Shown in pieces: positions 4,396 through 50,570 of a stretch of DNA of 50,865 nucleotides; position 1 is the stretch's first letter; the number at the start of each line of letters is the position of its first letter. This stretch comes from Escherichia phage vB_EcoS_swan01. The translations under genes and the position numbers were made by a program. The stretch lies in sequence record NC_048202.1. One strand, given 5' to 3'. The notes beneath the pieces were generated by a model. It ran no database searches and was not told where the DNA came from. It saw only the letters and a program-made list of their open reading frames with translations.

Positions 4396-5052
<657 letters not shown>

Positions 5053-6441: not shown

Positions 6442-6471
6442 CTTTAATGCTCCTTGTTGCTTTATGCGTGC

Positions 6472-6499
6472 ATTGTAGCCATTTGGTTGATTTAGTCAA
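6472..6499 (-). promoter_or_regulatory. sigma70-like promoter (TTGACT-N16-TACAAT) for the exonuclease/Erf/SSB operon
   Basis: near-consensus -35 and -10 hexamers read on the minus strand about 30 nt upstream of the exonuclease start. Confidence 0.5.
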
Positions 6500-6639
6500 T
6501 AGCTGTTTTGTTTTTTCTGTTTTCTAAACGTTCTCATATGGCAAGAAAACAGATTTGACTCATAAGTTAATGATTAATGTGTGTTATTTTTCTTGTTCCC
6601 ATGTTCTCTCAGATACGCCGGATTATATACATACACATG

Positions 6640-6800
6640 AATGATGGCACATACAGATACTCAGAAAGAAAAATCACCACAAACAACCAAAACCACAAGA
6701 AACGCAGATAACAAGAAAAAACAAATATACATACATAAATAAATAAACTATTGATTTTATATGTATATATCTATTTTATTGATTGTTTATTGATCTTATG
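6640..6800. repeat. AT/CA-rich intergenic element, related to the one at ~36790-36960
   Basis: shared strings such as cacaaacaacc...aacaa(a)aag and ataaataaataa; TTATTGAT repeats; sits in a ~500-bp non-coding strand-switch region. Confidence 0.5.
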
Positions 6801-6866
6801 TTGTCTAAATTTTGCGCTAAATTTACGCCGTCTTAAATTCGATAACACCGGAAAACAAAAAATAAC

Positions 6867-6911
6867 AAATAGCACTTTTTGCTAAACGCGATGCCCAAGA
6901 TCGTGTATAGT
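6867..6911 (+). promoter_or_regulatory. motif promoter-like element (AAATAGCACTTTTTGCTAAA, ~21 nt spacer, TATAGT)
   Basis: conserved motif plus -10-like hexamer about 30 nt upstream of the lipoprotein gene ATG. Confidence 0.55.
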
Positions 6912-6942
6912 TGCATCCAACAACAACTAAGGAGTATTGAAG

Positions 6943-7212
6943 ATGAAAAAGTTAATCGCAGTTATCGCCACTGTAGCCGCTCTGACAGGATGCGCAGCGT
7001 CGCCTACTGGCAACTTCAAGGAGATCGATTGCACGGCAAAATTTAACGTTAAAACATTCCCTGTTAACGGATTCCATGAAGTCAAAATTAATGCAGTCCG
7101 CGAAAACAGATTCAGCCAAAAGCAATACAGGTTGAGCGTTGACAATAAAGAAGTTAAATTTATCAACCGTTGGCAAAATGAAAGTAAATTTATTGATTTG
7201 AGGTGTAATTAA
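6943..7212 (+). CDS. lipoprotein, candidate superinfection-exclusion protein (Cor/Llp-like)
   Basis: signal peptide with lipobox LTGC, about 89 aa, AAGGAG RBS. Confidence 0.55.
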   Translation: MKKLIAVIATVAALTGCAASPTGNFKEIDCTAKFNVKTFPVNGFHEVKINAVRENRFSQKQYRLSVDNKEVKFINRWQNESKFIDLRCN

Positions 7213-26250: not shown

Positions 26251-27813
26251 ATTGCGTAGACCAGCCAGCTTTTTCATCCTTGCTACCGGATCATCAGCCA
26301 AGTTCATTTCGACGTTAACAGCATCAACTATATTATCGACAATATCATCATGGGGATGAGAATCGTCAAAAGTGAACGCTGCAACCTCTGCCAGTATCTC
26401 AGGTAACATGGGATGACTTTCTGGCAGTGCCACACGTCCGGCCCTCATTACTGGCGCGGCGTCCATTGCTCGCGTTACCTTGTCATTGCTTCGCTGAACG
26501 GGATTTATATCAATCGGGATCTTCTTTTTGGCCCCCTGAATCAAACCCGTGCCGCTGGCCTTATCCTCAATGTGGATACGTCGCAAGCTGCCACACTCCT
26601 TATTGCGCTTCCAGCACTGATTAACGAAGGCAATAAAATTTAATTCAAGATCCGGCGCTTCCCACTTTCCGCGAATGCCATCAATGAAGTAAACGCGATT
26701 CTTATACATCCCCCAATAACAAAAAACTGAATAGTCGTTAAGCTCTCCGGCCTTCTGCGCGGTATCACCAGTAATAAATGTGTATTCAAAGCGATCCGGT
26801 TTAGGAAGTGCGCATTTTTCGCCGCTGCCGTAATACTGGAACCACTCTGTTTTAAACACGTTGCCGCCAAGCGCGATGGGTTGCTGTTGGTACTGACTGG
26901 CGAACGTATAAGGATCTGCATTGCGCAATGCAAGCAATTCCTCCGCGCTTTCCTTTGCAGGCCAAAATGAATAATGAGCAACGCCATCTATCATCACTGG
27001 CTTACTTGACAACACATCACGATCAAATTCAGGCTTCAACCAATCAGGAAGCGTTTCGCGGTATTCTTTCGTAACCAGCGCCGGAATACTCACAACTTTA
27101 AACTCAATACCACCCATCCCGCCATTAAGCATAAACCAGGTGGAATCATTAACGTGTAGTCGCTGTTGCACCATAACAATCGGCGTAGTGTCTTTCATTC
27201 GACGCGATCGCACTGTGTTTTTTAACCGCATGTGGATCGCCTCACGCTTGACCTTAGAAAGCATATCATCCGGCTTGTCTGGATCGTCCAGAACCAGCAT
27301 ACCAGTAAAACCATCGTCCATATAGCCGCCACGCAAACCTGTTACCTGTCCGCCAATAGAACGTGAGTTAACTTGCAATTTAACCTTGCCGCCATCCGTA
27401 ACTATGAGATCTTTTGCGCTCGCCTTTGCCAGTTTTCCTGGCCATAGCTCTTGCCACTCAGGAGAACCGATAATCTCCTTTATCCTGTTGCTGTTTTGCT
27501 GGACAAGTCCATCACTAAACGAAAGGTTAAGGTTTCTCACCTTCCGACTTTTCAATGACGCGTAGGGTGACATGTGGATCGAGAAAATCTCAGTCTTACC
27601 GCTACCTGGCGTAATGTTGAAAATCACATTCTGCGACTCTCCATTGATGATCTTCTCTACCTCACTGCACAATAAGCTAAAATGCCAGTTGCTCTGGAAT
27701 TTTTGCCCCTGCAATAACTGAAACCAGATTCTGATCATCTTTTCGAATGAATGCTCACTGATTTCTTTAATGGCTCGCTTTTGCGCCGCCGTCAAATCTT
27801 CCCATATGATCAT
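26245..27813 (-). CDS. terminase large subunit
   Basis: 522 aa; Walker A-like ITPGSGKTE and Walker B-like LVLDDPD; C-terminal nuclease-like region; follows TerS. Confidence 0.8.
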   Translation of the reverse strand: MIIWEDLTAAQKRAIKEISEHSFEKMIRIWFQLLQGQKFQSNWHFSLLCSEVEKIINGESQNVIFNITPGSGKTEIFSIHMSPYASLKSRKVRNLNLSFSDGLVQQNSNRIKEIIGSPEWQELWPGKLAKASAKDLIVTDGGKVKLQVNSRSIGGQVTGLRGGYMDDGFTGMLVLDDPDKPDDMLSKVKREAIHMRLKNTVRSRRMKDTTPIVMVQQRLHVNDSTWFMLNGGMGGIEFKVVSIPALVTKEYRETLPDWLKPEFDRDVLSSKPVMIDGVAHYSFWPAKESAEELLALRNADPYTFASQYQQQPIALGGNVFKTEWFQYYGSGEKCALPKPDRFEYTFITGDTAQKAGELNDYSVFCYWGMYKNRVYFIDGIRGKWEAPDLELNFIAFVNQCWKRNKECGSLRRIHIEDKASGTGLIQGAKKKIPIDINPVQRSNDKVTRAMDAAPVMRAGRVALPESHPMLPEILAEVAAFTFDDSHPHDDIVDNIVDAVNVEMNLADDPVARMKKLAGLRNK

Positions 27814-28340
27814 TAAAGTTGCTCCAGAATATCAATAACAGCCTCTTTCACCTCATCGGCAGTTACTGCGTCAATGCTTGCATTAGCTGCCGCGCTAGCT
27901 TCAACGCTCACTGTTGCTGGCTTCTCTACGCCGATCTCTTTACCGATAAATCCAGCATTAATCATGTTATTTGCCGCAAGCTGGAATTTTTGCTCGTAAA
28001 TTACTTTATCAACAAACTCCATCACATCGCAGAATCCAGGCTCTTTACGCCATTTGCTTACGGCAGCCTCAGTCACGCCGAGATACAAGCTGAATCCGTT
28101 AACCGTGAAAACGCGAGGCTTGTAAACTCTGCTCTCGTACACGTCACCCTGAAAGGAAGCAGTTTCAGCCGCCTGGATGTGATTCTCTTCGGCCCAAGTG
28201 AAATAGCGGATCGCCATATCAAAAACCTGTTCCGGCGTGTACTTGTGGCGGTTGTTTAGCGTGACAATATCGCCATAAGTTTTATTATATAACTCTTTGA
28301 AATTTAATGCCTTTACAGCAGGCTCAACATTTTTAGCCAT
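27813..28340 (-). CDS. terminase small subunit (putative)
   Basis: about 176 aa directly upstream of TerL with ATGA-type overlap; AAAGGAGG RBS. Confidence 0.55.
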   Translation of the reverse strand: MAKNVEPAVKALNFKELYNKTYGDIVTLNNRHKYTPEQVFDMAIRYFTWAEENHIQAAETASFQGDVYESRVYKPRVFTVNGFSLYLGVTEAAVSKWRKEPGFCDVMEFVDKVIYEQKFQLAANNMINAGFIGKEIGVEKPATVSVEASAAANASIDAVTADEVKEAVIDILEQL

Positions 28341-36128: not shown

Positions 36129-36589
36129 TGCTCTTCCTCTTTGATGATTTCGCGGATCATATCCTGGTAGCGGCTTACGCCCTCGCAAGCCCCAGCCAGT
36201 TTATCCCCTTCCAGGTCCACGATGTTCGGGATTGCTGCCAGTATGCGATCGGCAAACTTTTTGATCGCCCTTGCCTTGATGGCTGGCAATTCTTCTGGTG
36301 TGATGATTTTCCTTTTCGATTCGCGGACCATGCGGAAAACGTAAAATTTATCATCTTCCGTTTCCTCTACCTTGATACTTACCCGACCTGCGGCCCTTAC
36401 TTCTGGAACGCGGTTGATAATGGTCCGGCTGTAGGATGAACTGCGCGTGATCTTGTAGCAGTCGTCACCGCTTAACATTCCGGCCAGGTCAATTAGTGAC
36501 ATTTTATACTCTTCAATATCGCCACTAGCCAGGCGGCGACCAAGCTCGCGAAGCCAATCGCAATAGTCCTTAGTGGTCTTCTGTTCCAT
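36125..36589 (-). CDS. hypothetical protein (first gene of a leftward operon)
   Basis: start at MEQKTTKDY with GGAGGAAAGGA RBS, about 30 nt downstream of a consensus sigma70 promoter. Confidence 0.55.
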   Translation of the reverse strand: MEQKTTKDYCDWLRELGRRLASGDIEEYKMSLIDLAGMLSGDDCYKITRSSSYSRTIINRVPEVRAAGRVSIKVEETEDDKFYVFRMVRESKRKIITPEELPAIKARAIKKFADRILAAIPNIVDLEGDKLAGACEGVSRYQDMIREIIKEEEQ

Positions 36590-36620
36590 TTCCTTTCCTC
36601 CAGTTGTTGACTGTTGGCGC

Positions 36621-36649
36621 ATTATAAAAGCTATTTGGTGCGTGTCAAT
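36621..36649 (-). promoter_or_regulatory. consensus sigma70 promoter (TTGACA-N17-TATAAT)
   Basis: perfect -35 and -10 hexamers with 17-bp spacer read on the minus strand, upstream of gene 36125..36589. Confidence 0.65.
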
Positions 36650-36789
36650 GTTTTTGTTGTATTCAAAACGTTACCAATATCGAAAAACTACAAAATCATG
36701 CGCAAGTTATTGATTTCAGGGCTGTTATTTTTCTGTTCACGCTGTTAACGCAATCCGCCGGAAAAAGTATATATACATATGCAATCCGC

Positions 36790-36960
36790 CGCGCGCGCAA
36801 CTATCCATATATACCCACACACAACCACACCATAACCAACAAAAAGCACTGTAACAGTGAGAACAAAAAGAAAACATTATAGATATATATAAATAAATAA
36901 TCTTTATTTTCAATGTATTATAGAGGGATTTTTTTGTTTTTTTCGTTTTCGCTACACCGG
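36790..36960. repeat. AT/CA-rich intergenic element, related to the one at ~6640-6800
   Basis: shared strings ccacacacaaccacacc...aacaaaaag and ataaataaataa; direct repeat gcaatccgccg x2; inside a 660-bp non-coding region. Confidence 0.5.
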
Positions 36961-37083
36961 AAAACCGCGCGGAAACACGCCGCCTGAAATCGGTAACAGG
37001 GGTGAACAAAAGACAACAACCGCTGACAGCCAGGCGGAAAAGTGAGGCAAGAGGGGAAGGTTTCACTATCTCCCCTGCAACCA

Positions 37084-37180
37084 ATGATTAAACGTGATTA
37101 CTTTTCTCATCAAATTTGCAAAGGCAATCATCATTTTGACGTGATTTGATTACGAATGATTACTTTTGATTATTTCGATC
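37084..37180. repeat. iteron-like direct and inverted repeats of ATGATT/TGATTAC
   Basis: at least 5 copies of (A)TGATTAC(TTTT) within ~100 bp just upstream of the first rightward motif promoter. Confidence 0.5.
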
Positions 37181-37201
37181 ACAATCCTGGTGCTAACCGT
37201 C

Positions 37202-37247
37202 AAATAGCACTTTTTGTTAAAAATCAGGCCGCCTGATCGGGTACATT
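37202..37247 (+). promoter_or_regulatory. motif promoter-like element (AAATAGCACTTTTTGTTAAAA, 22 nt, TACATT)
   Basis: first promoter of the rightward small-gene block; leader CATCGAAACGAACC precedes the RBS. Confidence 0.6.
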
Positions 37248-37282
37248 ACACACATCGAAACGAACCGCTCAGGAGATAGTAA

Positions 37283-37555
37283 ATGAACATCAGCAAAACC
37301 ACTTTCAATTTCGCTAAGCGTCACGGTCTGGAACTGACTGTTGAAGATTTTGGCGATGTTCTGCAACTCTGCATTTGGGAAGCAGATAACGATTGCGAGT
37401 GGCTTTGCTCTTATCGTATCAACTACGATTGCTTGACCTGGCACGGCAATATCTATCTGCCGCAAGAAGTGAAAGAAGAATTGCCAGCGACTATCAACAA
37501 CGAAGTTTTCTTGCGCCAGGTGCTGAAATTTATCAGTAAGGAGATCAAAAAATAA
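37283..37555 (+). CDS. hypothetical protein
   Basis: 90 aa, AGGAGA RBS. Confidence 0.55.
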   Translation: MNISKTTFNFAKRHGLELTVEDFGDVLQLCIWEADNDCEWLCSYRINYDCLTWHGNIYLPQEVKEELPATINNEVFLRQVLKFISKEIKK

Positions 37556-38993: not shown

Positions 38994-39101
38994 GGCTATT
39001 TATTTTCAAAAATGCCTGGATGGTAGCGGTTGCAAATGACCATTACGGCGGCGACGGAAAAAGAGCACGACGCCATTCATATTTCAATTGAGGATATTTA
39101 A

Positions 39102-39329
39102 ATGAAAGCAAAAGTTTTAAACATTATGTCAACTATTGACGCTCATCACCGCGTGGCTGTAAAACTTGATAAGTCTTGTGGAATTAGCCAAATCACTATC
39201 ACCGAGGGCAAAGGCGGCTATCTTATCGGTATCCATCCAGGCGGTAAGGTGCGCAAATACAATAAAGATCAGTTAAAAGAATTACTGGAAGAAAACGCTT
39301 TCTATATTCAAAGTTGGCGTGCTCTTTAA
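39102..39329 (+). CDS. hypothetical protein
   Basis: 75 aa, followed by a terminator. Confidence 0.5.
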   Translation: MKAKVLNIMSTIDAHHRVAVKLDKSCGISQITITEGKGGYLIGIHPGGKVRKYNKDQLKELLEENAFYIQSWRAL

Positions 39330-39334
39330 TTAAT

Positions 39335-39358
39335 ATGGCGGCGTTTTGCCGCCTTTTA
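39335..39358 (+). terminator. rho-independent terminator
   Basis: ggcggcg-tttt-gccgcc hairpin plus T-run. Confidence 0.65.
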
Positions 39359-39370
39359 AATGAGGTGGAA

Positions 39371-39487
39371 ATGATAGATAAGGCTATTGATTTCTTTTTT
39401 TATTCGATTATTGGCGCGGTTGGCTTTTTGGTTACTGCTGCTGGCCTGGCTATTATATTGGCTGTTATTAAGGGGATTATGCGATGA
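39371..39487 (+). CDS. small hydrophobic protein (38 aa, below the ORF-track cutoff)
   Basis: ATG with GAGGTGG RBS; predicted single transmembrane helix; stop overlaps the next ATG (ATGA). Confidence 0.45.
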   Translation: MIDKAIDFFFYSIIGAVGFLVTAAGLAIILAVIKGIMR

Positions 39488-39708
39488 GTCAAGACGGATT
39501 TTTTGAGCGCCTTCAAATGGCAGAAGATGCCGGACTAAATAAAGAGGCGGCGCTTGAAGTGGCATATAAAATTAAGAGTCTTGATGAGGCTTTAGGTGAT
39601 ATGGATATGGATCTTGAATCAAGCGCAATATTTGCAGATCCCACTATGATTGTTAATGATTGTGGATGCGATTTCGATCCTGGTTGTCCGCGCTGTTTTC
39701 CGTTTTGA
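39484..39708 (+). CDS. hypothetical protein
   Basis: 74 aa, acidic, C-terminal CGCDFDPGCPRC. Confidence 0.5.
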   Translation: MSQDGFFERLQMAEDAGLNKEAALEVAYKIKSLDEALGDMDMDLESSAIFADPTMIVNDCGCDFDPGCPRCFPF

Positions 39709-39718
39709 GGTAATGACG

Positions 39719-40429
39719 ATGTATAAAGGTTTAATATTCTCCCTATTTGATGGATCTGGTAAAGCAGTTAAAGATTGGGCTGATAATGGCTATAAGTGCA
39801 TTTGCTTTAATGCTGACGGCGGCGATCACGGTGATTACCAGTCAGTGCGCATACAGCATGAGAATATCGAATACGTTAACGTCTGGATTGATGATGCTTT
39901 TTATGTTAAGGCAATCAATAATGAGTGGGGCAATCCTGATTTTATTATGGCGTTCCCTCCTTGCACCGACCTTGCAAATAGCGGATCTCGCCATTGGGCC
40001 AAAAAACGCCTTGAGAATCCATCGTTCCAGGATGAGGCCGCCGACACTTGCAGAATCGCGGCTGATATAGCTGATTATTTCGGTGTTCCTTACATGATCG
40101 AAAATCCGGTTGGCAAGTTGTCAACGTTATGGCGTAAGCCTGATTATACGTTCCATCCGTGCGATTACGCTGGCTATCTGCCGGAAGATGATAAACATCC
40201 CGACTTCCCTGATATTATTCCGGCGCGTGATCGCTATTTTAAGAAAACGTGCCTCTGGACTGGCAACGGCTTTGTTATTCCTCCGCGCGCTTTAATCCTG
40301 CCGAAAGAGGAAGACAAAGATAATCCAGGCTGGGCCAAAACTGGCGGCAAGTCATCGCGCACAAAGATGATCCGCTCCCTCACTCCGCGCGGATTTGCTC
40401 GCGCCGTCTTTGAGTCAAACTCAAAATAG
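39719..40429 (+). CDS. DNA (cytosine-5) methyltransferase-like protein (putative)
   Basis: motif I-like LFDGSG, motif IV-like FPPCTD...SG and motif VI-like ENPVG in the canonical order; start could also be ATG 39713. Confidence 0.45.
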   Translation: MYKGLIFSLFDGSGKAVKDWADNGYKCICFNADGGDHGDYQSVRIQHENIEYVNVWIDDAFYVKAINNEWGNPDFIMAFPPCTDLANSGSRHWAKKRLENPSFQDEAADTCRIAADIADYFGVPYMIENPVGKLSTLWRKPDYTFHPCDYAGYLPEDDKHPDFPDIIPARDRYFKKTCLWTGNGFVIPPRALILPKEEDKDNPGWAKTGGKSSRTKMIRSLTPRGFARAVFESNSK

Positions 40430-40469
40430 CACTTTTTGTTAAAAGCCAGGTGTAAAAACCTGGCATAAT
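40424..40469 (+). promoter_or_regulatory. motif promoter-like element (AAATAGCACTTTTTGTTAAAA, 22 nt, CATAAT)
   Basis: TAG stop of the upstream gene lies at motif positions 4-6; inverted repeat in the spacer; leader CATCGAACAAACAAAGGAG. Confidence 0.6.
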
Positions 40470-40498
40470 CACATCGAACAAACAAAGGAGATCTGATC

Positions 40499-40885
40499 AT
40501 GAATGTTATCTGTAATGAAACCAACGTATTGATGAAAGGCCGTTTTAAAACGGTTTATCAGAAGATTGCAGGAAGTGATGATGTGATCGAGGTGGAAGAG
40601 TTCCAGGTTAAGACGCTTGTTAAGGGTAGCCGCTGGCTTCCAGCAAACCGAGATGATTACCGCGCCATTAACACAAAAACCGTTCTTTGCACGTTTGTAG
40701 ATCATAACATGCCGTGCAAAAAGCACTTTAAGCAGGGCAAGCGATACCAGATCGAGAAAGGGCGACCGCTTGGAAGCGTTGCGGGTTATGTTTTTGATGA
40801 GTGCGGCGACCGCTGGAACCTGTACCGTGAAGAGGTCGGATTCTCTGCTGGCGGCTGTTATCTGTTTGAGGGCAAATATCTGTGA
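40499..40885 (+). CDS. hypothetical protein
   Basis: 128 aa. Confidence 0.5.
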   Translation: MNVICNETNVLMKGRFKTVYQKIAGSDDVIEVEEFQVKTLVKGSRWLPANRDDYRAINTKTVLCTFVDHNMPCKKHFKQGKRYQIEKGRPLGSVAGYVFDECGDRWNLYREEVGFSAGGCYLFEGKYL

Positions 40886-41103
40886 TAAACAGTGAAAACC
40901 GTTACAAAGTAACGCATTCTACCACAAAGACTTTCAAGCCTGGCGATATAGTCAGGCCCATCAAAAAAACTGCGGTAGGTTGGCTGATTGGTTTTTCATA
41001 TCATAAGGCGCTTTACTTTACGTTTAAGGATGGGATTACAGGAGAATGCTACAGCGACCGCCAGCCTGATCGACTTCTGGTTGCAATAGAGCGGATCAAA
41101 TAG
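40882..41103 (+). CDS. small protein (possible member of the small paralog family)
   Basis: 73 aa; TFKPGDIV motif resembles MFKPGEIY of 34227..34448. Confidence 0.5.
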   Translation: MINSENRYKVTHSTTKTFKPGDIVRPIKKTAVGWLIGFSYHKALYFTFKDGITGECYSDRQPDRLLVAIERIK

Positions 41104-41143
41104 CACTTTTTGACAAAACGGGGTAGTATTGGGACGTTAAAAT
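41098..41143 (+). promoter_or_regulatory. motif promoter-like element (AAATAGCACTTTTTGACAAAA, 22 nt, TAAAAT)
   Basis: variant with TTGACA in place of TTGTTA; TAG stop embedded; precedes the 526-aa P-loop protein gene. Confidence 0.55.
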
Positions 41144-41171
41144 TTACGGCCCACAAAGGAGAAGCTAACGA

Positions 41172-42752
41172 ATGTTTTCATTAGAAACGAACAAATTAAC
41201 TCCACAACAAATAATCGCTATGGCTGAAAGCCAGAACCTCTCACCAGTTCGCGTATCAATTCAGGCTAACGGCTATCGCCAGTCGTCCAGCTTTTGGGGC
41301 GACGTAAAGGATGTGAATAGCGGTCACGATCGCTACCCCGTTATTTCTCTTGGTAATGATATTGATGTTGTCGGCAAGTTATCACGCAGCATTGCGCGAT
41401 CCGTTCAATTCCCTGAATCATCGGCTTACATGCACTTTATCGGCTGCATTTCTGCCGCTATGCTTGGACGCTTTACGGTTGACTATCACGGAACCGATCA
41501 GCCGACTGCGCTTTACGTCGTTACAAGCCAGCCGCCGTCAACTGGTAAATCTGCGATCAACAGCATGGCTATTGCTCCGATGATTGCGGAAGTTGAGAAG
41601 ATCAACGAGCAACGCCGCAAGGAAAGAAAGAAAATACAGGCAAAGCTGGCAGGTCTTGCAAAGGAGATGAAAAGCGAAAGATCCGGCGCTGATATGGAAT
41701 CTCTATACCAGGAAAAAGAGGATCTGGAGGAAAAGCTGGAAAAAATGTGTGATATAACTTTTCCTGTTTCAGATACAACTCCAGAAGGCTTGGCGAAAAT
41801 CAACAACAAGCAAGGTAACTTTGCCGTAATATCTGATGAAGCAACAAGTATTAACAGTCTGTTAGGCTTGACCTATGCAAATAGCGAAAGGAAGACTAAC
41901 AGTGAGTTAGTGCTTAAGGCGTGGGATAATGGTCACGTATCAATTGCCCGTGCTAATGCTGACAATAATATGAGTTTTCGCGCGCTTGGATGTATGAGCG
42001 TCATAGCCCAGGATGAAACGATAAGCGGAATCATGGACGCTGGATCGCGAGGCATCGGTGTTAGTGAGCGTTTTTTGTTGGTCCGCGAGGAATCATTCTT
42101 AGGCCGTCGCTCATTCATTGATGAAAATGGTGATTCTACCTATGAGGCGGTGGATTCTGAATTGAAAGCCCAATATTATCAATTGGTGCATAACATCATG
42201 AGCGAATCAAATATATCGCTGAAAATAAGCCGTTCAGCTATGCGAGTGCTCAACATTGCTCGCCAGGATATGGAACCGCATCTTGCAGACGGAGGAAAGT
42301 ATTCTCATACAATGTTACGCGGTGCGCTGGGTAAAATGGATAAACAGGTGATCAGGCTTGCTTCCGTCCTGCATGTTATCCGTAACTGGTTTAATCCTGC
42401 CGGATACCCGCAGAAGTCGAAAGAGATCGACGTGGAAACAATGCAAGAGGCGTTGATCATGTTTCAGGAATTGAGCAAAACATACATTAGCGCCGCCAAT
42501 GCTTCTGGTTATGCTGGTGATGATGCTGAAATGGGTAAATTGATTGAATTGATCACGAGGCACGGCAAGGCTAATAAAGGGATTCTGAATATCCGCGCCC
42601 TGTACGAATCAGCGAGAAAGGTAAAACCTTTCGTTGGTCAGGCTGGCGTAATGAAAAGGATAGAAGGGCACTTACTGCCAATGCTGGAAGAAAGAAATTA
42701 TGTTTGTGTGATTAATGGTGTTATTTTTGTCAATCCAATACTGCTGGGATGA
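41172..42752 (+). CDS. P-loop NTPase, replication-associated (putative)
   Basis: 526 aa; Walker A-like SQPPSTGKSA; no further family assignment possible by eye. Confidence 0.5.
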   Translation: MFSLETNKLTPQQIIAMAESQNLSPVRVSIQANGYRQSSSFWGDVKDVNSGHDRYPVISLGNDIDVVGKLSRSIARSVQFPESSAYMHFIGCISAAMLGRFTVDYHGTDQPTALYVVTSQPPSTGKSAINSMAIAPMIAEVEKINEQRRKERKKIQAKLAGLAKEMKSERSGADMESLYQEKEDLEEKLEKMCDITFPVSDTTPEGLAKINNKQGNFAVISDEATSINSLLGLTYANSERKTNSELVLKAWDNGHVSIARANADNNMSFRALGCMSVIAQDETISGIMDAGSRGIGVSERFLLVREESFLGRRSFIDENGDSTYEAVDSELKAQYYQLVHNIMSESNISLKISRSAMRVLNIARQDMEPHLADGGKYSHTMLRGALGKMDKQVIRLASVLHVIRNWFNPAGYPQKSKEIDVETMQEALIMFQELSKTYISAANASGYAGDDAEMGKLIELITRHGKANKGILNIRALYESARKVKPFVGQAGVMKRIEGHLLPMLEERNYVCVINGVIFVNPILLG

Positions 42753-43144
42753 TTATGTTTTTGCTTGATCTGTATAAATGGTGTGAGTCATACGACTGGT
42801 TTAACAGGCAGCACATAGCCAAATTTATCTATCAGCATAGAGAATGTGAGCGGCTCGCACGGGCCGCCGGACTTACTCCGCGAATGTTCGCCAGCCTTGC
42901 ATCTAAGGAATTTTGCGCAAGAATGATGACGGCTGGCTATATAGATGGGGTATGCGGTAAATACTGGTCCAAAGGATCGTCAAAGCGGCCTTTCGGATTC
43001 GAATTTTATAGCCTGGATGGTATGCGCAACGACTGGATCAGGGATATGGCTAGAATAGTGGAGATGGGCGATGATGAATTGTTCCAGGCAAAAGCTAATA
43101 GACAAGATCTTGAAGCACTGCGCCGTAAATTCAATATCACATGA
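42749..43144 (+). CDS. hypothetical protein
   Basis: 131 aa, ATGA overlap with upstream gene. Confidence 0.5.
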   Translation: MIMFLLDLYKWCESYDWFNRQHIAKFIYQHRECERLARAAGLTPRMFASLASKEFCARMMTAGYIDGVCGKYWSKGSSKRPFGFEFYSLDGMRNDWIRDMARIVEMGDDELFQAKANRQDLEALRRKFNIT

Positions 43145-43265
43145 TGATTTTATTCATGCTTTACTTACGCTACTTTATTCAGATATGCGAGCTTTTAGCA
43201 CCACTGAACATGTTTTATGCAATGATGATGGTGTGTTATTGGTTACAGTAAAGCGTATGGAATAG
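43071..43265 (+). CDS. hypothetical protein (uncertain start, overlaps upstream gene)
   Basis: its TAG stop is embedded in the conserved motif as for other genes, but the ORF overlaps 42749..43144 by 74 nt. Confidence 0.3.
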   Translation: MMNCSRQKLIDKILKHCAVNSISHDDFIHALLTLLYSDMRAFSTTEHVLCNDDGVLLVTVKRME

Positions 43266-43305
43266 CATTTTTTGTTAAAACTCCCGACCTTGTGTCGGGT
43301 ATATT
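43260..43305 (+). promoter_or_regulatory. motif promoter-like element (GAATAGCATTTTTTGTTAAAA, 22 nt, TATATT)
   Basis: hairpin cccgac-cttgtg-tcggg in the spacer; leader CATCGAAACGAACC. Confidence 0.55.
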
Positions 43306-43342
43306 TGTTTCATCGAAACGAACCAACCAAAAAGGAAAAATT

Positions 43343-43567
43343 ATGTACAGCAAGTTTTTAGTAGTTCGCGTATACAATCATGCAAATGGATCTTCTTCTG
43401 AAATCCCGACAGTTTACGATAAGGATTCAGGCTGGAGTGAGCAATCGGCGGTTGAAAATGAGCGCAAGATTGCAGAAATGTACGGCGACACTTGCAGCAT
43501 TGAAGTAAGGCAGTACGACGAATCGAACAAGCCAACAAACGAAACTCATATGTGGCCCGACGCATAA
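43343..43567 (+). CDS. hypothetical protein
   Basis: start at MYSKFLV with AAAAAGGAAA RBS. Confidence 0.5.
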   Translation: MYSKFLVVRVYNHANGSSSEIPTVYDKDSGWSEQSAVENERKIAEMYGDTCSIEVRQYDESNKPTNETHMWPDA

Positions 43568-43570
43568 AAA

Positions 43571-43598
43571 TAAAGGAGGCATTAAGCCTCCTTTTTCT
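43571..43598. terminator. bidirectional rho-independent terminator
   Basis: aggaggc-attaa-gcctcct hairpin plus T-run; overlaps the 3' end of the spanin gene. Confidence 0.6.
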
Positions 43599-43974
43599 TT
43601 TCTCTCCAGTAAAGACAAATCAGCACAATTAACACAACCACGCATATGATTACCGGATCGTACCATCTGCCGTTATTACCCTGCACGACATGAATTTTGT
43701 CTGCCTTGATGGTATTGGCCTGAATGGTTGATGTTGTGAAATCCTTCTTGCTGGACGTGTCCACCTTGTCAACCGCAGATTCCTTTATTGTGGTTTCCTG
43801 TTTTGTGCTGGCGTCCTGCTTTGCTGTAATGCCAACTGTCTGCTTCACGTTCTCCGCTCCAGCCTGTGCTGTGATTTCCGGCTTACTGCCGATTAATCCG
43901 GTCAGTGGCGTAACGCTTGAACATCCAGACAAGATCACCGCCATTGCGATTGGTGTAAGTAAAAAATTCTTCAT
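43582..43974 (-). CDS. unimolecular spanin (lipoprotein with C-terminal transmembrane anchor)
   Basis: N-terminal lipoprotein signal [18 protein letters not shown] and C-terminal TM helix VIICVVVLIVLICLYW, the architecture of T1 gp11-type u-spanins; immediately after the endolysin gene. Confidence 0.6.
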   Translation of the reverse strand: MKNFLLTPIAMAVILSGCSSVTPLTGLIGSKPEITAQAGAENVKQTVGITAKQDASTKQETTIKESAVDKVDTSSKKDFTTSTIQANTIKADKIHVVQGNNGRWYDPVIICVVVLIVLICLYWREKKKEA

Positions 43975-44465
43975 CATTTCAGATCCATTGTGCAATATTT
44001 GTATTCGACCTTGCGCCTGTTAAGTAATCCTTTAGACTTCTCGCGCTTTCCTGTTTTTGGGTTATGGTAATAAGTCCAACGATAAAGCTGATCGCAAGCC
44101 TCGTTTAATTTCCCCTGGTTGATGAGTTTCAGCATTGTTGAATTTCTGAAAGCCCCCACACCTGCATTGTAAGTGAATGAGTACATTGCTGCACGCATAC
44201 TATCAGGAATATCAACCTTAACTTTCTTGTCAACTTCCTTTTTAGCAACCTGGATATGCTTAGCCAACAAAGCATCACACTCTTTTTTAGTGTACGTTTT
44301 CCCCAGGATAACATCTGGTCCGGTGATTCCTGCGCAAACCGTCCATACTCCAGCAATATCTTTGTATGGCTTGTATCTTACCCCTTCGATCTCTTCAAGA
44401 AGTGGAGAAGTCAAGGCAACCGCAACGCCAAAGGCCGCAGCCGCTACCCTGTTCTTTATGCTCAT
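43974..44465 (-). CDS. SAR endolysin (GH24 lysozyme)
   Basis: N-terminal signal-anchor-release segment [17 protein letters not shown] followed by T4-lysozyme-like catalytic region ([22 protein letters not shown]). Confidence 0.8.
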
Positions 44466-44680
44466 TACTTGCCCCTGATTTCAATAGCTTTTTGAATATC
44501 ACCTTTTTCGATCGCTTCGTGGAATTTTTTACTATCACGCCAGCGAAGGTAAGCGCCCCATGCACCGAATGCAGCCATTAAAACAAAGCTGGCAATAGCA
44601 ATGGTTAACTGCCCTGTAGCGGCGCTTGCGATAGATGAACCGCCAGATCCAGCGGTAGCTGCGTTAATAAAATCTTTCAT
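44465..44680 (-). CDS. holin (pinholin-like)
   Basis: 71 aa, two hydrophobic helices and charged C-terminus; precedes a SAR endolysin. Confidence 0.6.
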
Positions 44681-44703
44681 TTTTATTCTCCATATTAATT
44701 AAA

Positions 44704-44717
44704 GTCAATATATTGAC
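44704..44717. promoter_or_regulatory. perfect 14-bp palindrome GTCAATATATTGAC upstream of the holin gene (operator-like)
   Basis: exact inverted repeat about 25-40 nt upstream of the holin start. Confidence 0.4.
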
Positions 44718-44825
44718 CGAATGATAAACGTACATGGTAAAAAATTAAACAAAAAAAAGAGGCGACAAACGCCGCCCCTTTGCAAGTTTTTGATTTAATT
44801 TGTCATTGATTTAAATAAAAATTCA

Positions 44826-45941
44826 TCAATTCATCATTTCTGGATAGTGAACAAATCGCCCAACCTCTCCATGCTCTTTGTCGTAAATGATAACCGCCGC
44901 ACGGCGTCGAGATCTCCAGCCACCTCGCGCGGCGTATGCGTCTTTTGCCGCCAGGGTGCTATGCACCTCAACGATGCCAAGCGACGTTTCTGTCACGGTC
45001 TGGTGATGCCAGTGCCCTACGTGCGCATACATCGTTTTTGAGTTTCCGAAGTCCTCCCGCCAATCTGACGCGCACATCATTAGCAAAGTCTCCGGTTTAC
45101 GCACTGTGTGCCCGTGATGGTACGCAAGGAAAGTTTTTCCGTATTGCGTGTGGTGCACAACGCGAGGTGAAACATCAACGTAAACGCGCGGCTCGTTTTC
45201 ATATGCTGCCGCCATTGCTGCGCGCAGCCAAATCATTCCTGATTGGTCATGATTGCCCTCTACGATCTGGACTTCAACATGTTTATGCTTTAACAACATT
45301 TTATTGATTGCGCGTCGCATTGCACGGATGGCAACGTAAACCAATTTTGCATATCGACTATCTTGATCCAGTACGTGACCGCTTGCAGGTGTAACCGCCT
45401 CCAGGCCGTCGCTATGCAGCATATCGCCACCAATCAGGATGACAGCCTTTTCGCTATCCGGTGCGCACATTAAAGCATAGTCGATAAAGTTATTCATAAC
45501 GCGCTCTGCCGTGGCAGTATCCCAATTTTCGCCGCATTCGTGCTTATGGGCCATAGCTCCTAAGTGCATGTCAAAGATCGGATACAAGGAAAGCGTTTCG
45601 TTATAGTCGCGCTCCTGTAATGGAACCGGATCTAATCGCGGCACTTCCTCGCTAAATGCCTCCATTGCTGCGAGCATTAATGCTTCTAATTGCTCTTTAT
45701 CCTTGCTGGTTTTAGTCCACTTTAGGATTATGTTGCCTTCTTTGTCAGTCATTACTGACTCACCATGAACTCCAAAACCAGGCGCTCCAATGGTGGATAC
45801 CTGGCCTTGCTTTGCAAGTCGCGCCGCGCGACGCTCGACGCTTCTCACATTCATTCCGTACTCTTGAGCGATCTGTTTATATGTCTTACCCGCCGCCCGT
45901 TCGATCTTGAATTGCTCATCTGTAATTTTTACATTTTTCAT
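44826..45941 (-). CDS. calcineurin-like metallophosphatase with N-terminal HTH-like domain
   Basis: GDMLHSD and GNHD metallophosphoesterase motifs; N-terminal TYKQIAQEYGMNVRSVERR helix-turn-helix-like segment; start at MKNVKIT with AGGTGG RBS. Confidence 0.6.
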   Translation of the reverse strand: MKNVKITDEQFKIERAAGKTYKQIAQEYGMNVRSVERRAARLAKQGQVSTIGAPGFGVHGESVMTDKEGNIILKWTKTSKDKEQLEALMLAAMEAFSEEVPRLDPVPLQERDYNETLSLYPIFDMHLGAMAHKHECGENWDTATAERVMNNFIDYALMCAPDSEKAVILIGGDMLHSDGLEAVTPASGHVLDQDSRYAKLVYVAIRAMRRAINKMLLKHKHVEVQIVEGNHDQSGMIWLRAAMAAAYENEPRVYVDVSPRVVHHTQYGKTFLAYHHGHTVRKPETLLMMCASDWREDFGNSKTMYAHVGHWHHQTVTETSLGIVEVHSTLAAKDAYAARGGWRSRRRAAVIIYDKEHGEVGRFVHYPEMMN

Positions 45942-48009: not shown

Positions 48010-50006
48010 TAAACAAACTCCCGTTTTGCAATGTTATCCTCACCTTTGCCGTTTTTGCGATGCGTTACGCGTACAGGCGGCATGATGTGATGAGCGTATG
48101 ACATTATTTTACGAGCATTTCTATAGCTCGCCACCATACCAGCAATCTTGCGATCCGGTATGTGCTGCAATGCTATTTTTCTCCATATCGTCCGGCAAAT
48201 GTTGCTTTCTGACTCAGGGAAAAATCTTTCGTATGCCTTGAACGTGTCGCCGTTGGCCTCAAGCTCATAGCAAAAAATAATTCCTTTCTGGTTTTTCGTC
48301 ATATCAACGCGGAAAGATTTAACGTTGCACCAATCGTTTTTGGTGTAGTGCTTACCGCTTAACTTCTCGTTAGGATCGACAAGAGAAATATCGCAACAAC
48401 GGCATACTCTCGCCACTACGTCGTTTTTTGTTCCGCAACCGCGCTTGATTATCTTTTTCGTTCTCTGATCTACCTGGTCCTCGCAAATTCTGTAAGTCCA
48501 AAAATGCTCACATCGCTTCCCGTTATCGTCTACGTGCATACATCGGCGAGCGTAAAAGCTGTTTAGCGTTCCACATATCGGACAAGTCTTAGGCTCTTTC
48601 CCGTTTGTAAATCTCTTTTGGAATTGCGCTTGCTCAAGGATTGGATCGAAATACAAATCACCTAACTCATCCATAGTACCTGCAAAATCCAATACAAGAT
48701 GATCTTTTTTCTTGAATCCCTGCTCAATGTGCCATTGCTTAAGCAGTCGCATGCCGCGCCCCAAAAGCTGGATAAGCAATGTTAGAGATCCTATCTTTCT
48801 CAGTATTACAGAAGTATCCCAAAACGGAACGTTAACGCCAGTGGTAAGCGCCTGTACCTGGAAGATGTATTTTACTTTTCCCTCGTATGCCTCCCTCAGC
48901 CACTCTTTACGCTGATTATCTCCAGTCTTGCCAGTTATGATCCTGTATTCAACGCCTGGCGGCAGTGCGGCGGCAGCCTCCTTGCAGTGCCTTTCCCCTG
49001 CGCATGTAACTAAAACTCCGTTCCTGTCTTTGCATATCTCATGGACTTTAGCCATGATTTTCTGTGTCATTGTTGCGTCTTGATGGATCTTTTCTTCCAT
49101 CTTGCGCAATGTTTTAGCGTCAAAGTCTGAAACGCCATCCTCGCTACTGGCTTCGAACTCTGAAAGGTCATAACCCAGGTCGCCTACGTCGCCGAAGTTT
49201 GTTGGCACTACCGAACCGAATTTGATTAAGTAGTTTGTGTCTATGTTAGTCACCTGCTCACGCCAGAATCCATTTTTGTTCTTATCTTCAACCAGTATTG
49301 GAACCACGCCGCGAAACTCAGATCCAGTCATGCCGAATATTCGCAATTCGTGCCCGTATGCCTCGCGACACCTACGCATCATTTCCATGATTATTACGGT
49401 GTACTGTGTGCGCCCTGTTCCGAACATTGGATCGCCATTGGAATCAAATTGCTGTTCTTCTCCAATCAGTACAGGCAAATCCTTCTTAGTGGTCATCTGC
49501 TGGTAAGATTCATTATTTTCTATCGCGTCCGCGAGATCCTCCCAATCCACCTGGTGACATTCATCAATACCGATAACGTGCGGAACATAATCACCTAACG
49601 ACTTAAACAATCCGTTTACTACAGTGCCCTCAGAACCGACTACGATCGGAAAGTATGCGCTTTTTGTTTTCAGTCCGGCGCAATAGATTGAGTTTGGCAC
49701 GCCAAGATTGCTGATCTCTTCCGAATCCTGATCAACAATTTCAGCCTGGCGAGCAAGGACCATCATTTTCAATCCCATTTTGCGGCATTGCGCCGCAACC
49801 ATCGCAAACATCAATGTTTTGCCAGCCGATACAGAAGCCTTAACAAAGAAAGGATGCTCATAGTTTTTCATGCGCTTTGCGATCTCTGCATACGCAACGC
49901 ACTGATAAGGATAAGGCACTATATTGCCAACCGTGAATCGCTCTTGGATGCTTTTTATTACTGCCTCGCCTAATGCTGATATTTGTTTTTCGATATTTGG
50001 AATCAT
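48009..50006 (-). CDS. SF2 DNA helicase (DEAD/DEAH-like) with C-terminal Cys-rich domain
   Basis: Walker A VSAGKT, DECH box, and multiple CxxC pairs in the C-terminus. Confidence 0.8.
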   Translation of the reverse strand: MIPNIEKQISALGEAVIKSIQERFTVGNIVPYPYQCVAYAEIAKRMKNYEHPFFVKASVSAGKTLMFAMVAAQCRKMGLKMMVLARQAEIVDQDSEEISNLGVPNSIYCAGLKTKSAYFPIVVGSEGTVVNGLFKSLGDYVPHVIGIDECHQVDWEDLADAIENNESYQQMTTKKDLPVLIGEEQQFDSNGDPMFGTGRTQYTVIIMEMMRRCREAYGHELRIFGMTGSEFRGVVPILVEDKNKNGFWREQVTNIDTNYLIKFGSVVPTNFGDVGDLGYDLSEFEASSEDGVSDFDAKTLRKMEEKIHQDATMTQKIMAKVHEICKDRNGVLVTCAGERHCKEAAAALPPGVEYRIITGKTGDNQRKEWLREAYEGKVKYIFQVQALTTGVNVPFWDTSVILRKIGSLTLLIQLLGRGMRLLKQWHIEQGFKKKDHLVLDFAGTMDELGDLYFDPILEQAQFQKRFTNGKEPKTCPICGTLNSFYARRCMHVDDNGKRCEHFWTYRICEDQVDQRTKKIIKRGCGTKNDVVARVCRCCDISLVDPNEKLSGKHYTKNDWCNVKSFRVDMTKNQKGIIFCYELEANGDTFKAYERFFPESESNICRTIWRKIALQHIPDRKIAGMVASYRNARKIMSYAHHIMPPVRVTHRKNGKGEDNIAKREFV

Positions 50007-50093: not shown

Positions 50094-50570
50094 ATGAAAG
50101 ATGCACGAATTGCAGTATCTACGGGTGAGATCGACAAGCGCACTATTAACGGTAACAACGGAACGCGACGAGGTAAAGACAAAAAACCACGAAAACACCG
50201 AACCGGATTTCTTATCCTGCGAGATGAGGTAAAAGCAAGCCTGAAATCTCGCCTTGACATTCTGATCGAGTATTACGGCGGCGTTCCTGCTATGGCTCGA
50301 CGTCTGCGCGTATCTCAGCAAGTCGTTAACCAGTGGCGAAAGCGTGGTATGATTTCAGCCGCTGGAGCACAAAAGGTGCATAACGACTACAAATATAATG
50401 GATGCAAAGGATACCGCGCATCATTTTGTCGTCCAGATCTGCGGTTTGATTCTAACGGTAAGCCTCTTACTACCCGTTGCGACAAATACGATATGTTGCG
50501 CGTAGTCAAAAATTCAGACTACGAACCAGGCGGACGATTCTACAAAGGTGATAACAGCACGAATAGCTAA
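50094..50570 (+). CDS. HTH DNA-binding protein (Cro/YdaS-like, putative transcriptional regulator)
   Basis: GGVPAMARRLRVSQQVVNQWRKRG helix-turn-helix segment; basic N-terminus; followed by a terminator. Confidence 0.55.
   Translation: MKDARIAVSTGEIDKRTINGNNGTRRGKDKKPRKHRTGFLILRDEVKASLKSRLDILIEYYGGVPAMARRLRVSQQVVNQWRKRGMISAAGAQKVHNDYKYNGCKGYRASFCRPDLRFDSNGKPLTTRCDKYDMLRVVKNSDYEPGGRFYKGDNSTNS

What the first reader, a model, noticed from the sequence alone, without database searches (positions are those of the whole stretch)
37084..37180. Iteron-like ATGATT/TGATTAC repeats just upstream of the first rightward motif promoter
At least five direct and inverted copies of (A)TGATTAC(TTTT) cluster within about 100 bp, for example gtgattacttttc, gtgatttgattacgaatgattacttttgattatttcg and the inverted aatcatca. 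Clustered short repeats of this kind are typical of binding arrays for replication initiators or repressors; the HTH protein at 50094..50570 is a candidate binder.
Basis: seen in the sequence. Interest (0 to 1): 0.55.

Follow-up and report, generated by a model that had tools for sequence, protein, structure and literature searches.

The report
Likely packaging (pac) site repeats
A real, helically phased cluster of TGATTA repeats in the main non-coding control region of a T1-like coliphage most likely marks the site where the phage terminase starts DNA packaging, rather than a replication-initiator or repressor array; the pac sequence of this phage family has never been defined.

Summary
TGATTA occurs five times on the + strand at 37085, 37095, 37147, 37157 and 37167, plus TGATT at 37142 and one inverted copy at 37126-37134. 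This is the strongest hexamer cluster in the 50.9-kb window (0 of 200 null genomes match it), and the five copies lie on one helical face.

The window is a T1-like phage (Drexlerviridae, Warwickvirus). The array fills a ~125-bp module between a conserved G/C box (37050-37078) and the first rightward ATAGCAC..TAAAA promoter element (37204). This module belongs to a ~184-bp segment that is absent from a paralogous non-coding region at 6442-6945.

The same module is TGATT-enriched, though not alignable, in T1, TLS, Rtp, MSK, Hanrivervirus and a second Warwickvirus type. Every available datum on physical genome ends in the family falls in or beside it:
- the T1 and TLS record origins
- the MSK PhageTerm terminus
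- the SU57 coverage-step end
- three independent record breakpoints

The small terminase is P22 gp3-like.

Best reading (about 0.5): a multi-repeat pac recognition array. Rivals are an operator or upstream site for the adjacent promoter, origin iterons, and a host-factor site or DNA bend. Nothing ties the proposed HTH protein to the array. No binding or cleavage data exist for this phage.

The parts
37084..37101 (+). Left pair of repeats: ATGATTA (37084-37090) and GTGATTAC (37094-37101), 10 bp apart
37122..37134 (-). Central inverted copy. It reads ATGATGATTGcct on the minus strand; the first 10 nt equal the start of the TLS array element ATGATGATTGATG
37141..37182 (+). Right block of repeats: GTGATT(T) at 37141, TGATTAC at 37147, TGATTAC at 37157, TGATTAT at 37167, and a degenerate CGATCAC at 37176 that holds the only GATC. 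Period is 10 bp
37079..37203 (.). Whole TGAT-rich module between the C-box and the promoter repeat. It is about 125 bp, matching 124 nt in T1, 126 in vojen and about 136 in Jahat
37050..37078 (.). Conserved G/C box (AGAGGGGAAGG...TCCCCTGC). Genome-record breakpoints of haarsle, G29-2 and XY3 fall here, and the MSK and SU57 termini fall just past its analogue. The predicted hairpin is not thermodynamically significant
37020..37203 (.). Region-A-specific segment of about 184 bp that is absent from the paralogous region at 6442-6945. Its left edge is also a mosaic boundary against phage AV105: 49-81% identity to the left, 98-99% to the right
37204..37247 (+). First rightward promoter unit: 21-nt family repeat ATAGCACTTTTTGTTAAAA (37204-37222), inverted repeat ATCAGG/CCTGAT (37223-37237) and the -10-like TACATT (37242-37247). 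It lies upstream of the first rightward gene (37283-37555)
36851..36950 (.). AT-rich core (ATATA / AAATAAATAA / T-runs), the most widely conserved non-coding block in the family. It also has a copy in region B
36992..37029 (+). NAACA array: AACAG 36995, AACAA 37005, AACAA 37015, GACAG 37025, with an exact 10-bp period. It is mirrored by TGTTAT/TGTTCA/TGTTAA at 36723-36748 and is part of the duplicated module
36621..36648 (-). Leftward promoter with perfect sigma-70 consensus (TTGACA-16-TATAAT). It drives the early block that leads to the terminase genes
27813..28340 (-). Small terminase subunit, the candidate binder. It belongs to the GP3_package family and is homologous to P22 gp3

Best explanation
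The TGATTA array is the recognition part of the phage's packaging-initiation (pac) site.

Proposed mechanism (inferred, not shown). Copies of the ring-forming, P22 gp3-type small terminase bind the short TGATT-core repeats. The repeats sit on one face of the helix in two blocks (37084-37101 and 37141-37182) around a central inverted copy. The large terminase then makes the first cut next to or inside the array. Two positions are predicted from relatives: about 37067-37085 at the G/C-box edge, or about 37140 by analogy with T1 coordinate 1. Headful packaging then runs away from the adjacent promoter, towards the AT-rich core and the terminase-side genes (the window's minus direction).

What is shown. 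The array is non-random and phased. The module is TGATT-enriched across the family. Known or inferred genome ends of relatives map to this module. The small terminase is P22 gp3-like.

What is inferred. That the small terminase is the binder, where the cut lies in this phage, and the packaging direction.
For: 1. Reality of the array. It is the top hexamer cluster of the genome. No null genome (0 of 200) and no local simulation (0 of 2000) matches it, and the copies are phased at 10.3-10.5 bp.

2. Uniqueness. None of the other 18 ATAGCAC-type promoter repeats has a TGATT cluster upstream. The array lies in a segment missing from the paralogous region B. A pac site is expected to be unique.

3. 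Family-wide conservation of motif content without alignable sequence. TGATT/AATCA is enriched in the same C-box-to-promoter module of the window, vojen, Jahat, T1, TLS, Rtp and MSK, with P between <0.0002 and 0.016 each against shuffles (sequences).

4. Physical ends.
- T1's record starts inside its array and annotates 1-2800 as the terminal repeat.
- TLS position 1 is the authors' pac assignment after restriction mapping, and it lies mid-array.
- The PhageTerm forward terminus of MSK at 36,862 (P 1.6e-9) falls in the module.
- SU57's end, chosen from PhageTerm plus an abrupt coverage change, is 17 nt from the MSK position in the homologous sequence.
- The record breakpoints of haarsle, G29-2 and XY3, submitted from three countries, fall within about 12 nt at the C-box/array junction. 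By contrast, 60 of 64 Hanrivervirus-type records run across that junction.

5. Binder. The small terminase is in Pfam GP3_package (E 3.8e-11) and matches the P22 gp3 structure 3P9A (E 1.7e-15).

6. Architecture. Two blocks of hexamers around a spacer resemble the P1 pac site, which has seven TGATCA/G hexamers as HEX4 and HEX3 flanking the cleavage site (PMC10028697).
Against: - There are no binding, cleavage or read-terminus data for this phage or any close Warwickvirus relative.
- The T1 and TLS coordinate origins are approximate. The TLS authors chose AGATTT by resemblance to P22 pac.
- The MSK record is flagged UNVERIFIED, and I assumed that the paper's coordinate refers to that record.
- Record breakpoints may be assembly artefacts. 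XY3 is deposited as circular.
- Repeat polarity relative to the promoter and the genome is flipped between the window (6 forward, 1 reverse) and T1/TLS/Rtp (0-1 forward, 3-5 reverse).
- In Hanrivervirus and Jahat the first two copies form palindromes (TTAATCAnnTGATTAA, TGATTAATCA), which is the geometry expected of a dimeric HTH regulator.
- The lambda test was weak. No TGATT pairs occur between P and Q; there is only a single 13-mer shared with TLS.
- Unlike P22 and P1, the site is about 9 kb from the terminase genes.
- An earlier proposal placed T1 pac at ATATA repeats (cited in PMC8421802).
Confidence: 0.5

Rival explanations
1. Upstream regulatory array for the adjacent ATAGCAC-type promoter. 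A phage DNA-binding protein, such as the Cro-like HTH protein at 50094-50570 or an early small protein, binds the TGATT cores and activates or shuts off rightward early transcription.
For: In every genus examined the array lies directly upstream of an ATAGCAC promoter repeat, on the helicase-side arm of the divergent region. In Hanrivervirus and Jahat the first copies form palindromes typical of dimeric HTH operators. An HTH protein is conserved across the family. Phased sites upstream of a promoter are typical of activators.
Against: The array does not overlap the promoter element or its -10. It spans about 30-120 bp upstream of the repeat. None of the other 18 promoters of this type carries it, so it is not part of that promoter class. 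Repeat polarity relative to the promoter flips between genera. This reading does not explain why the genome ends of relatives map here. No link to the HTH protein could be found.
Confidence: 0.2
2. Replication-origin binding sites. An unidentified phage or host initiator binds the repeats and opens the neighbouring AT-rich core.
For: The array lies about 140 bp from a strongly AT-rich, family-conserved core (36851-36950). It sits at a strand-switch and GC-skew turning point between divergent transcription units. It is phased on one helical face. The origin of T1-like phages is unknown.
Against: The origin-like module (AT core plus inverted TGTTNA/NAACA arrays plus divergent promoters) is duplicated at 6442-6945 without the TGATTA array. 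If that module is an origin, it does not need the array. The repeat unit is 6-7 bp at 10-bp spacing, not iteron-sized. No DnaA box lies in the region. No initiator gene is annotated. GC skew here simply follows gene orientation.
Confidence: 0.12
3. A host-factor site or an intrinsic DNA bend. The phased TGATTAC-TTTT units curve the DNA, or bind a host protein that recognises tandem 10-bp repeats (for example an OmpR/PhoB-type regulator, or IHF-like cores), and so act as an architectural element for transcription.
For: T-runs follow three of the copies at helical spacing. GATTACTTTTG resembles my recollection of the ompF F1 OmpR site; this is from memory and was not checked. TTGATT is the reverse complement of the IHF core AATCAA. 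Strict IHF consensus sites do occur in both paralogous regions, at 36703-36715 and 6744-6756.
Against: No strict IHF consensus lies inside the array. The ACTTTT extension is specific to this genus, whereas the family-wide conserved part is only TGATT. A purely architectural role does not explain the location of genome ends.
Confidence: 0.08
4. There is no function. The cluster is a by-product of local slippage or duplication in fast-evolving non-coding DNA.
For: Units such as GATTACTTTTGATTA look like short local duplications. The segment is not alignable between genera.
Against: Genome-wide and local nulls are exceeded. Enrichment recurs independently in seven phages of three subfamilies. The segment is 98-99% conserved among about 59 records, even where the adjacent DNA is only 49-81% identical.
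Confidence: 0.04

Closest known systems
Bacteriophage P1 pac site (161 bp; seven TGATCA/G hexamers arranged as HEX4 and HEX3 around an IHF site and the cleavage site; PMC10028697)
   Same: Short hexamers beginning TGAT, clustered in two blocks around a spacer within about 100-160 bp, in a headful-packaging phage that encodes its own Dam methylase. In TLS and Hanrivervirus some copies are literally TGATCA or TGATC.
   Different: - The window's hexamers are TGATTA, with no GATC, so regulation by methylation is not expected here.
- No IHF consensus lies in the spacer.
- The site is intergenic and about 9 kb from the terminase genes, not inside pacA.
- The small terminase is P22 gp3-like, not PacA.
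P22 pac site and the gp3 small terminase (22-bp asymmetric site inside gene 3; as cited in PMC11447400)
   Same: The small terminase is homologous (PF16677; 3P9A, E 1.7e-15). Both use headful packaging with limited permutation.
   Different: P22 uses a single asymmetric site inside its own terminase gene. Here the candidate is a multi-copy phased array in a non-coding region far from the gene. Sequence similarity to P22 pac was not tested.
pac region of T1, TLS and Rtp-like phages, as so far described (the T1 and TLS record origins; AGATTT proposed for TLS; ATATA repeats proposed for T1)
   Same: The module occupies the same genomic position (between the G/C box and the helicase-side ATAGCAC promoter), has the same length of about 125 bp in T1, and shows the same TGATT enrichment.
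   Different: The published proposals name other short sequences. In the papers I could read, the TGATT repeats were not described. Repeat polarity is opposite to that in the window.
Iteron-type origins (lambda ori, iteron plasmids)
   Same: Direct repeats next to an AT-rich segment.
   Different: Unit length and spacing do not fit, no initiator gene lies nearby, and the AT-rich module exists elsewhere in the genome without the array. The lambda iterons are 18-bp units.

Membership tests
Repeat-type pac site (P1-like architecture) | Clustered short repeats in two groups within about 100-160 bp | tested here: met
   2 copies (37084-37101), a central inverted copy (37122-37134), then 4-5 copies (37141-37182).
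Repeat-type pac site (P1-like architecture) | The first packaging cut maps within or beside the repeats | tested here: inconclusive
   No data exist for this phage. In relatives the ends map to the homologous module: T1 and TLS origins, MSK PhageTerm, the SU57 end, and the haarsle, G29-2 and XY3 breakpoints.
Repeat-type pac site (P1-like architecture) | Repeats carry GATC, so cleavage is controlled by Dam methylation | tested here: not met
   TGATTA has no GATC. The only GATC is at 37177-37180. Some copies in TLS, T1 and Hanrivervirus do contain GATC.
Repeat-type pac site (P1-like architecture) | IHF site between the repeat blocks | tested here: not met
   No WATCAANNNNTTR match lies in 37084-37182. 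The nearest is at 36703-36715.
Repeat-type pac site (P1-like architecture) | The small terminase binds the repeats | not testable with these tools
   This needs EMSA or footprinting. Only the family of the small terminase was established.
P22-type pac | gp3-family small terminase | tested here: met
   PF16677, 43.5 bits against a cutoff of 29.4; 3P9A, E 1.7e-15.
P22-type pac | Single recognition site inside the small terminase gene | tested here: not met
   The array is intergenic and about 8.7 kb from the gene at 27813-28340.
Iteron replication origin | Three or more direct repeats of about 17-22 bp at roughly two-turn spacing | tested here: not met
   The core is 6-7 bp with a 10-bp period.
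Iteron replication origin | Adjacent AT-rich unwinding element | tested here: met
   The AT-rich core at 36851-36950 lies about 140 bp to the left. The same core exists at 6700-6800 without the array.
Iteron replication origin | DnaA boxes or a cognate initiator gene nearby | tested here: not met
   There are 3 TTWTNCACA matches in the genome and none in 36590-37283. No initiator is annotated in the close relative FritzSarasin.
Repressor operator array (lambda OR/OL type) | Palindromic 14-17 bp operators that overlap the promoter hexamers | tested here: not met
   The copies are direct repeats and end 22 bp or more upstream of the promoter repeat. Palindromic pairs occur only in Hanrivervirus and Jahat.
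T1-family 21-nt intergenic repeat (ATAGCACnnnTTGnTAAAA; PMC11447400). This concerns the neighbouring 'motif promoter', not the array | Match to the consensus, intergenic position, orientation with transcription, about 76 nt upstream of a start codon | tested here: met
   Exact match at 37204-37222, 79 nt before the ATG at 37283. There are 19 copies in the window against 2.7 expected.

The most novel reading that the evidence does not exclude
T1-like phages combine a P22-type small terminase with a P1-like multi-hexamer pac site, and the repeat polarity has flipped between genera. The window has 6 forward and 1 reverse copies; T1, TLS and Rtp have 0-1 forward and 3-5 reverse. If repeat polarity sets the direction of packaging, Warwickvirus would package its genome in the opposite direction to T1, although gene order is the same. 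That would also change which genes enter the host first.

A second unexcluded reading is that the array is bifunctional: it serves as pac and also controls the adjacent early promoter, or serves as the licensing element of one of two paralogous origins.
Probability: 0.12. Interest if true: 0.65.

Novelty: new member of a known kind. Interest (0 to 1): 0.45.

Why it matters
T1 was one of the first phages in which headful packaging from a unique pac site was demonstrated, yet the pac sequence of the family has never been defined. Published guesses are AGATTT for TLS and ATATA repeats for T1, and the TLS authors state that no repeats of the iteron kind exist anywhere in the genome.

A concrete ~125-bp candidate with discrete repeat elements makes the question directly testable by read-terminus mapping, terminase binding and plasmid transduction.

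It also matters in practice. Drexlerviridae are notorious laboratory and fermentation contaminants, they are generalized transducers, and they are common in therapeutic phage collections. A defined pac site is what is needed to build or avoid transducing particles, to orient genome records consistently, and to engineer these phages.

Tried and rejected
1. Rfam scan of 36400-37500 gave only sub-threshold snoRNA noise. There is no known RNA here.

2. Sigma-70 scan. No acceptable rightward promoter lies inside the array. There is one weak leftward match (37196..37169, 9/12), no better than shuffles.

3. G/C-box 'hairpin'. The DNA folding energy is no better than shuffles in the window, vojen or Jahat (z -0.05 to -0.8). 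I treat it as a conserved box, not a structure.

4. Lambda test. From memory (Drexler 1984, not found in the library), T1 initiates packaging at a site between lambda genes P and Q. There are no TGATT pairs within 16 nt in lambda 39000-45000. The densest TGATT/GATTR spot of that interval (about 43412-43560) carries ATGATGATTGATG, which is identical to a 13-mer of the TLS array and has no other match with up to 2 mismatches in lambda 1-45000. This is suggestive but post hoc, so I did not rely on it.

5. Covariation of array type with the small terminase or the HTH protein. Both proteins are >=95% identical in the same number of records (59), apparently the same clade, and drop to 65-80% outside it, so the test cannot discriminate.

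6. An argument that repeat orientation is conserved relative to genome polarity. I first made it, then withdrew it. T1, TLS and Rtp records are in the opposite orientation to the window, and polarity is in fact flipped.

7. Literature. The Rtp genome paper could not be retrieved, and the T1 genome paper was not expected to be in the library, so it was not requested. No paper gave terminus coordinates for a Warwickvirus or Hanrivervirus.

8. Several fetched loci were not available to the Python sandbox, so some sequences were pasted by hand.

Full report
**What the window is.** The 50,865-bp window is essentially a complete genome of a T1-like coliphage. The region around the finding is 98-99% identical to Escherichia phages orkinos, tinuso, tonn and FritzSarasin (Drexlerviridae, Tempevirinae, Warwickvirus). 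The finding lies in the largest non-coding stretch of the genome, about 36590-37283, between two divergent blocks of small early genes. The left block leads to polynucleotide kinase, terminase and the structural genes. The right block leads to a cytosine methylase and a helicase.

**Checking the observation.**
- TGATTA occurs five times on the + strand at 37085, 37095, 37147, 37157 and 37167. There is an extra TGATT at 37142, one inverted copy (AATCATCAT, 37126-37134) and a degenerate CGATCA at 37176.
- In a scan of every hexamer in every 90-bp window, this is the top cluster of the genome, with nominal P 6e-9.
- None of 200 third-order Markov genomes reaches that score.
- None of 2000 simulations of the intergenic region alone gives five copies of any hexamer within 90 bp.
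- The five copies lie on one face of the helix (R 0.91-0.99 at 10.3-10.5 bp, P <= 0.004).
- TGATTAC is not spread evenly. Three of its 12 genomic copies lie within 69 bp here.

**Surroundings.**
- A perfect sigma-70 consensus promoter (TTGACA-16-TATAAT) fires leftward from 36648..36621.
- The 'motif promoter' to the right is the 21-nt repeat ATAGCACnnnTTGnTAAAA, described for phage TLS and said there to occur also in T1 and Rtp, with function unknown (PMC11447400).
- The window has 19 copies of that repeat against 2.7 expected. Most are followed by a short GC-rich inverted repeat and a good -10 hexamer 22-24 nt after TTGnTA.
- Only the copy at 37204 has a TGATT cluster upstream.
- Between the two promoters lie an AT-rich core (36851-36950), which is the most widely conserved non-coding block in the family, and 10-bp-phased TGTTNA and NAACA arrays on either side of it.

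**A paralogous region.** The whole region has a paralogue at 6442-6945, between the exonuclease VIII gene and three small genes.
- The two align over the leftward promoter, the T-rich and CA-rich stretches, the ATATA/AAATAAATAA core, the NAACA array and the ATAGCAC repeat (about 70% column identity).
- Region A carries a ~184-bp segment (37020-37203) that region B lacks. That segment consists of a G/C box (37050-37078) and the TGATTA array.
- The origin-like or promoter-like features are therefore duplicated, while the array is unique.
- 37020 is also a sharp mosaic boundary against phage AV105: 49-81% identity to its left and 98-99% to its right.

**Other genera.**
- The array is not alignable outside the 59-record clade that shares this exact segment.
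- The flanks are alignable, and the module between the G/C box and the ATAGCAC repeat keeps its length: 126 nt here, 126 in vojen, 124 in T1 and about 136 in Jahat.
- The module also keeps its TGATT content. Examples are TTAATCAccTGATTAAaatTGATCAa in Hanrivervirus, TGATTAATCA..AATCAATCG in Jahat, four ATGATTG/TGTGATTG copies in T1, ATGATGATTGATG..GTGATTG..TTGATTTGATTTGATTAG in TLS, and AATGATTcacATGATT..TTGATTG in Rtp, MSK and SU57.
- Against composition-preserving shuffles the enrichment is significant in each of seven phages (P <0.0002 to 0.016).
- T1, TLS and Rtp records are in the opposite orientation to the window. Once this is allowed for, the architecture is collinear. The polarity of the repeats, however, is reversed between those phages and the window.

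**Where genome ends fall.**
- T1's record begins inside its array and annotates 1-2800 as the terminal repeat.
- TLS position 1 is the authors' pac assignment after restriction mapping, and it lies in the middle of the TLS array.
- For the Rtp-like phage MSK, PhageTerm gave a unique forward terminus at 36,862 (P 1.6e-9; PMC8421802). That position is inside the module, just past the G-box analogue.
- For SU57, the authors chose the end supported by PhageTerm and an abrupt coverage change (PMC7718038). It is 17 nt from the MSK position in the homologous sequence.
- Three Tempevirinae records submitted from three countries break within about 12 nt of one another at the G/C-box/array junction: haarsle, G29-2 and XY3. 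The XY3 break corresponds to window position 37067. By contrast, 60 of 64 Hanrivervirus-type records run straight across that junction.
- None of these data is for this phage, and several are soft. Together they place packaging initiation in this module.

**Candidate binders.**
- The small terminase (27813-28340, minus strand) belongs to the GP3_package family and matches the P22 gp3 structure.
It lies between the primase and helicase genes, and T1 has a homologue, ST23.
- Both proteins are >=95% identical in the same number of records (59) and diverge elsewhere, so covariation with array type cannot choose between them.

**Interpretation.**
- I rank a pac recognition array first, at about 0.5. 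Short repeats on one DNA face in two blocks around a spacer would be bound by the small terminase, with the first cut at the G/C-box edge or within the array. The closest described architecture is the P1 pac site, with seven TGATCA/G hexamers in two blocks around the cleavage site (PMC10028697). Here there is no GATC in the repeats, no IHF consensus in the spacer, and the location is intergenic, far from the terminase genes.
- The main rival, at about 0.2, is an upstream regulatory array for the adjacent promoter. It is favoured by the constant position upstream of an ATAGCAC element and by the palindromic pairs in Hanrivervirus and Jahat.
- Origin iterons, at about 0.12, are disfavoured by the repeat geometry, by the absence of DnaA boxes, and by the duplicated origin-like module that lacks the array.
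- A host-factor site or bend (0.08) and no function (0.04) remain possible.

**Novelty.** Pac sites built from repeated short elements are known, so the kind is not new. In the papers I could read, this array has not been described for Drexlerviridae, and the family's pac sequence is still undefined. I class it as a new member of a known kind, of moderate interest, and directly testable by read-terminus mapping, terminase footprinting and plasmid transduction.

Noticed in passing
window 6442-6945 (compare 36590-37290): A second divergent non-coding region is a paralogue of the first, with about 70% column identity. It shares the strong leftward sigma-70 promoter (TTGACT-16-TACAAT on the minus strand near 6466-6493), T-rich and CA-rich tracts, the ATATA/AAATAAATAA core, the NAACA array and a rightward ATAGCAC repeat at 6869. 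It lacks the 184-bp segment with the TGATTA array. These could be twin origins or twin early control regions.
   Followed up: partly
window, 19 sites (e.g. 34503-, 35841-, 38509+, 40426+, 46505-, 47575-): Most ATAGCACnnnTTGnTAAAA repeats are followed by a short GC-rich inverted repeat and then a good -10 hexamer (TATAAT, CATAAT, TATAGT) 22-24 nt after TTGnTA. That is too far for TTGnTA to act as a normal -35. This looks like a phage-specific, probably activator-dependent promoter class. The TLS authors list its function as an open question.
   Followed up: partly
window 36723-36748 and 36992-37029 (also 36851-36876): TGTTAT/TGTTCA/TGTTAA on the left and AACAG/AACAA/AACAA/GACAG (exact 10-bp period) on the right flank the AT-rich core in inverted orientation. 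Counterparts exist in T1 (CGATTAACA x3), TLS (GTGAACAC GTGAACAG), vojen (ATAACAC/ATAACAG x3) and region B. This is a second, family-wide binding-site-like array, distinct from the finding.
   Followed up: partly
window 36703-36715 (-) and 6744-6756 (-): Two of the five strict IHF consensus matches (WATCAANNNNTTR) in the genome lie in the two paralogous non-coding regions, one in each.
   Followed up: no
window 36750-36760 and 36781-36791: An exact 11-bp direct repeat, GCAATCCGCCG, occurs 31 bp apart and brackets an ATATATACATAT stretch.
   Followed up: no
window 37020: A sharp mosaic (recombination) boundary against phage AV105. Non-coding DNA to the left is 49-81% identical, while DNA to the right (array, promoter, first gene) is 98-99% identical.
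   Followed up: partly
L017 (lambda 39000-45000) 4459-4471 = lambda 43458-43470, inside ninI: Lambda carries ATGATGATTGATG, identical to a 13-mer in the TLS array (L014 587-599). It has no other match with up to 2 mismatches in lambda 1-45000. From memory, T1 can start packaging lambda DNA at a site between P and Q. The link is suggestive but unverified.
   Followed up: partly
L020 (phage XY3, MN781674) 130-600: In XY3 an extra 101-codon gene with its own second ATAGCAC repeat is inserted between the first ATAGCAC promoter and the conserved first gene. This suggests that these promoter repeats serve as junctions for gene-cassette exchange.
   Followed up: no
L014 (TLS 49300-49902) 487-520: TLS has two tandem copies of the palindromic 14-mer AGACCGATTGGTCT between its ATAGCAC repeat and the TGAT-rich array. 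This is an operator-like element that the window does not have.
   Followed up: no
phages collection, e.g. MG065685, MG065657, MG065640: About 17-22 records named 'Campylobacter phage' (host C. jejuni), and one named 'Streptococcus phage MBBL140', are T1-like coliphage genomes by sequence. They are probably contaminants or mislabelled.
   Followed up: no
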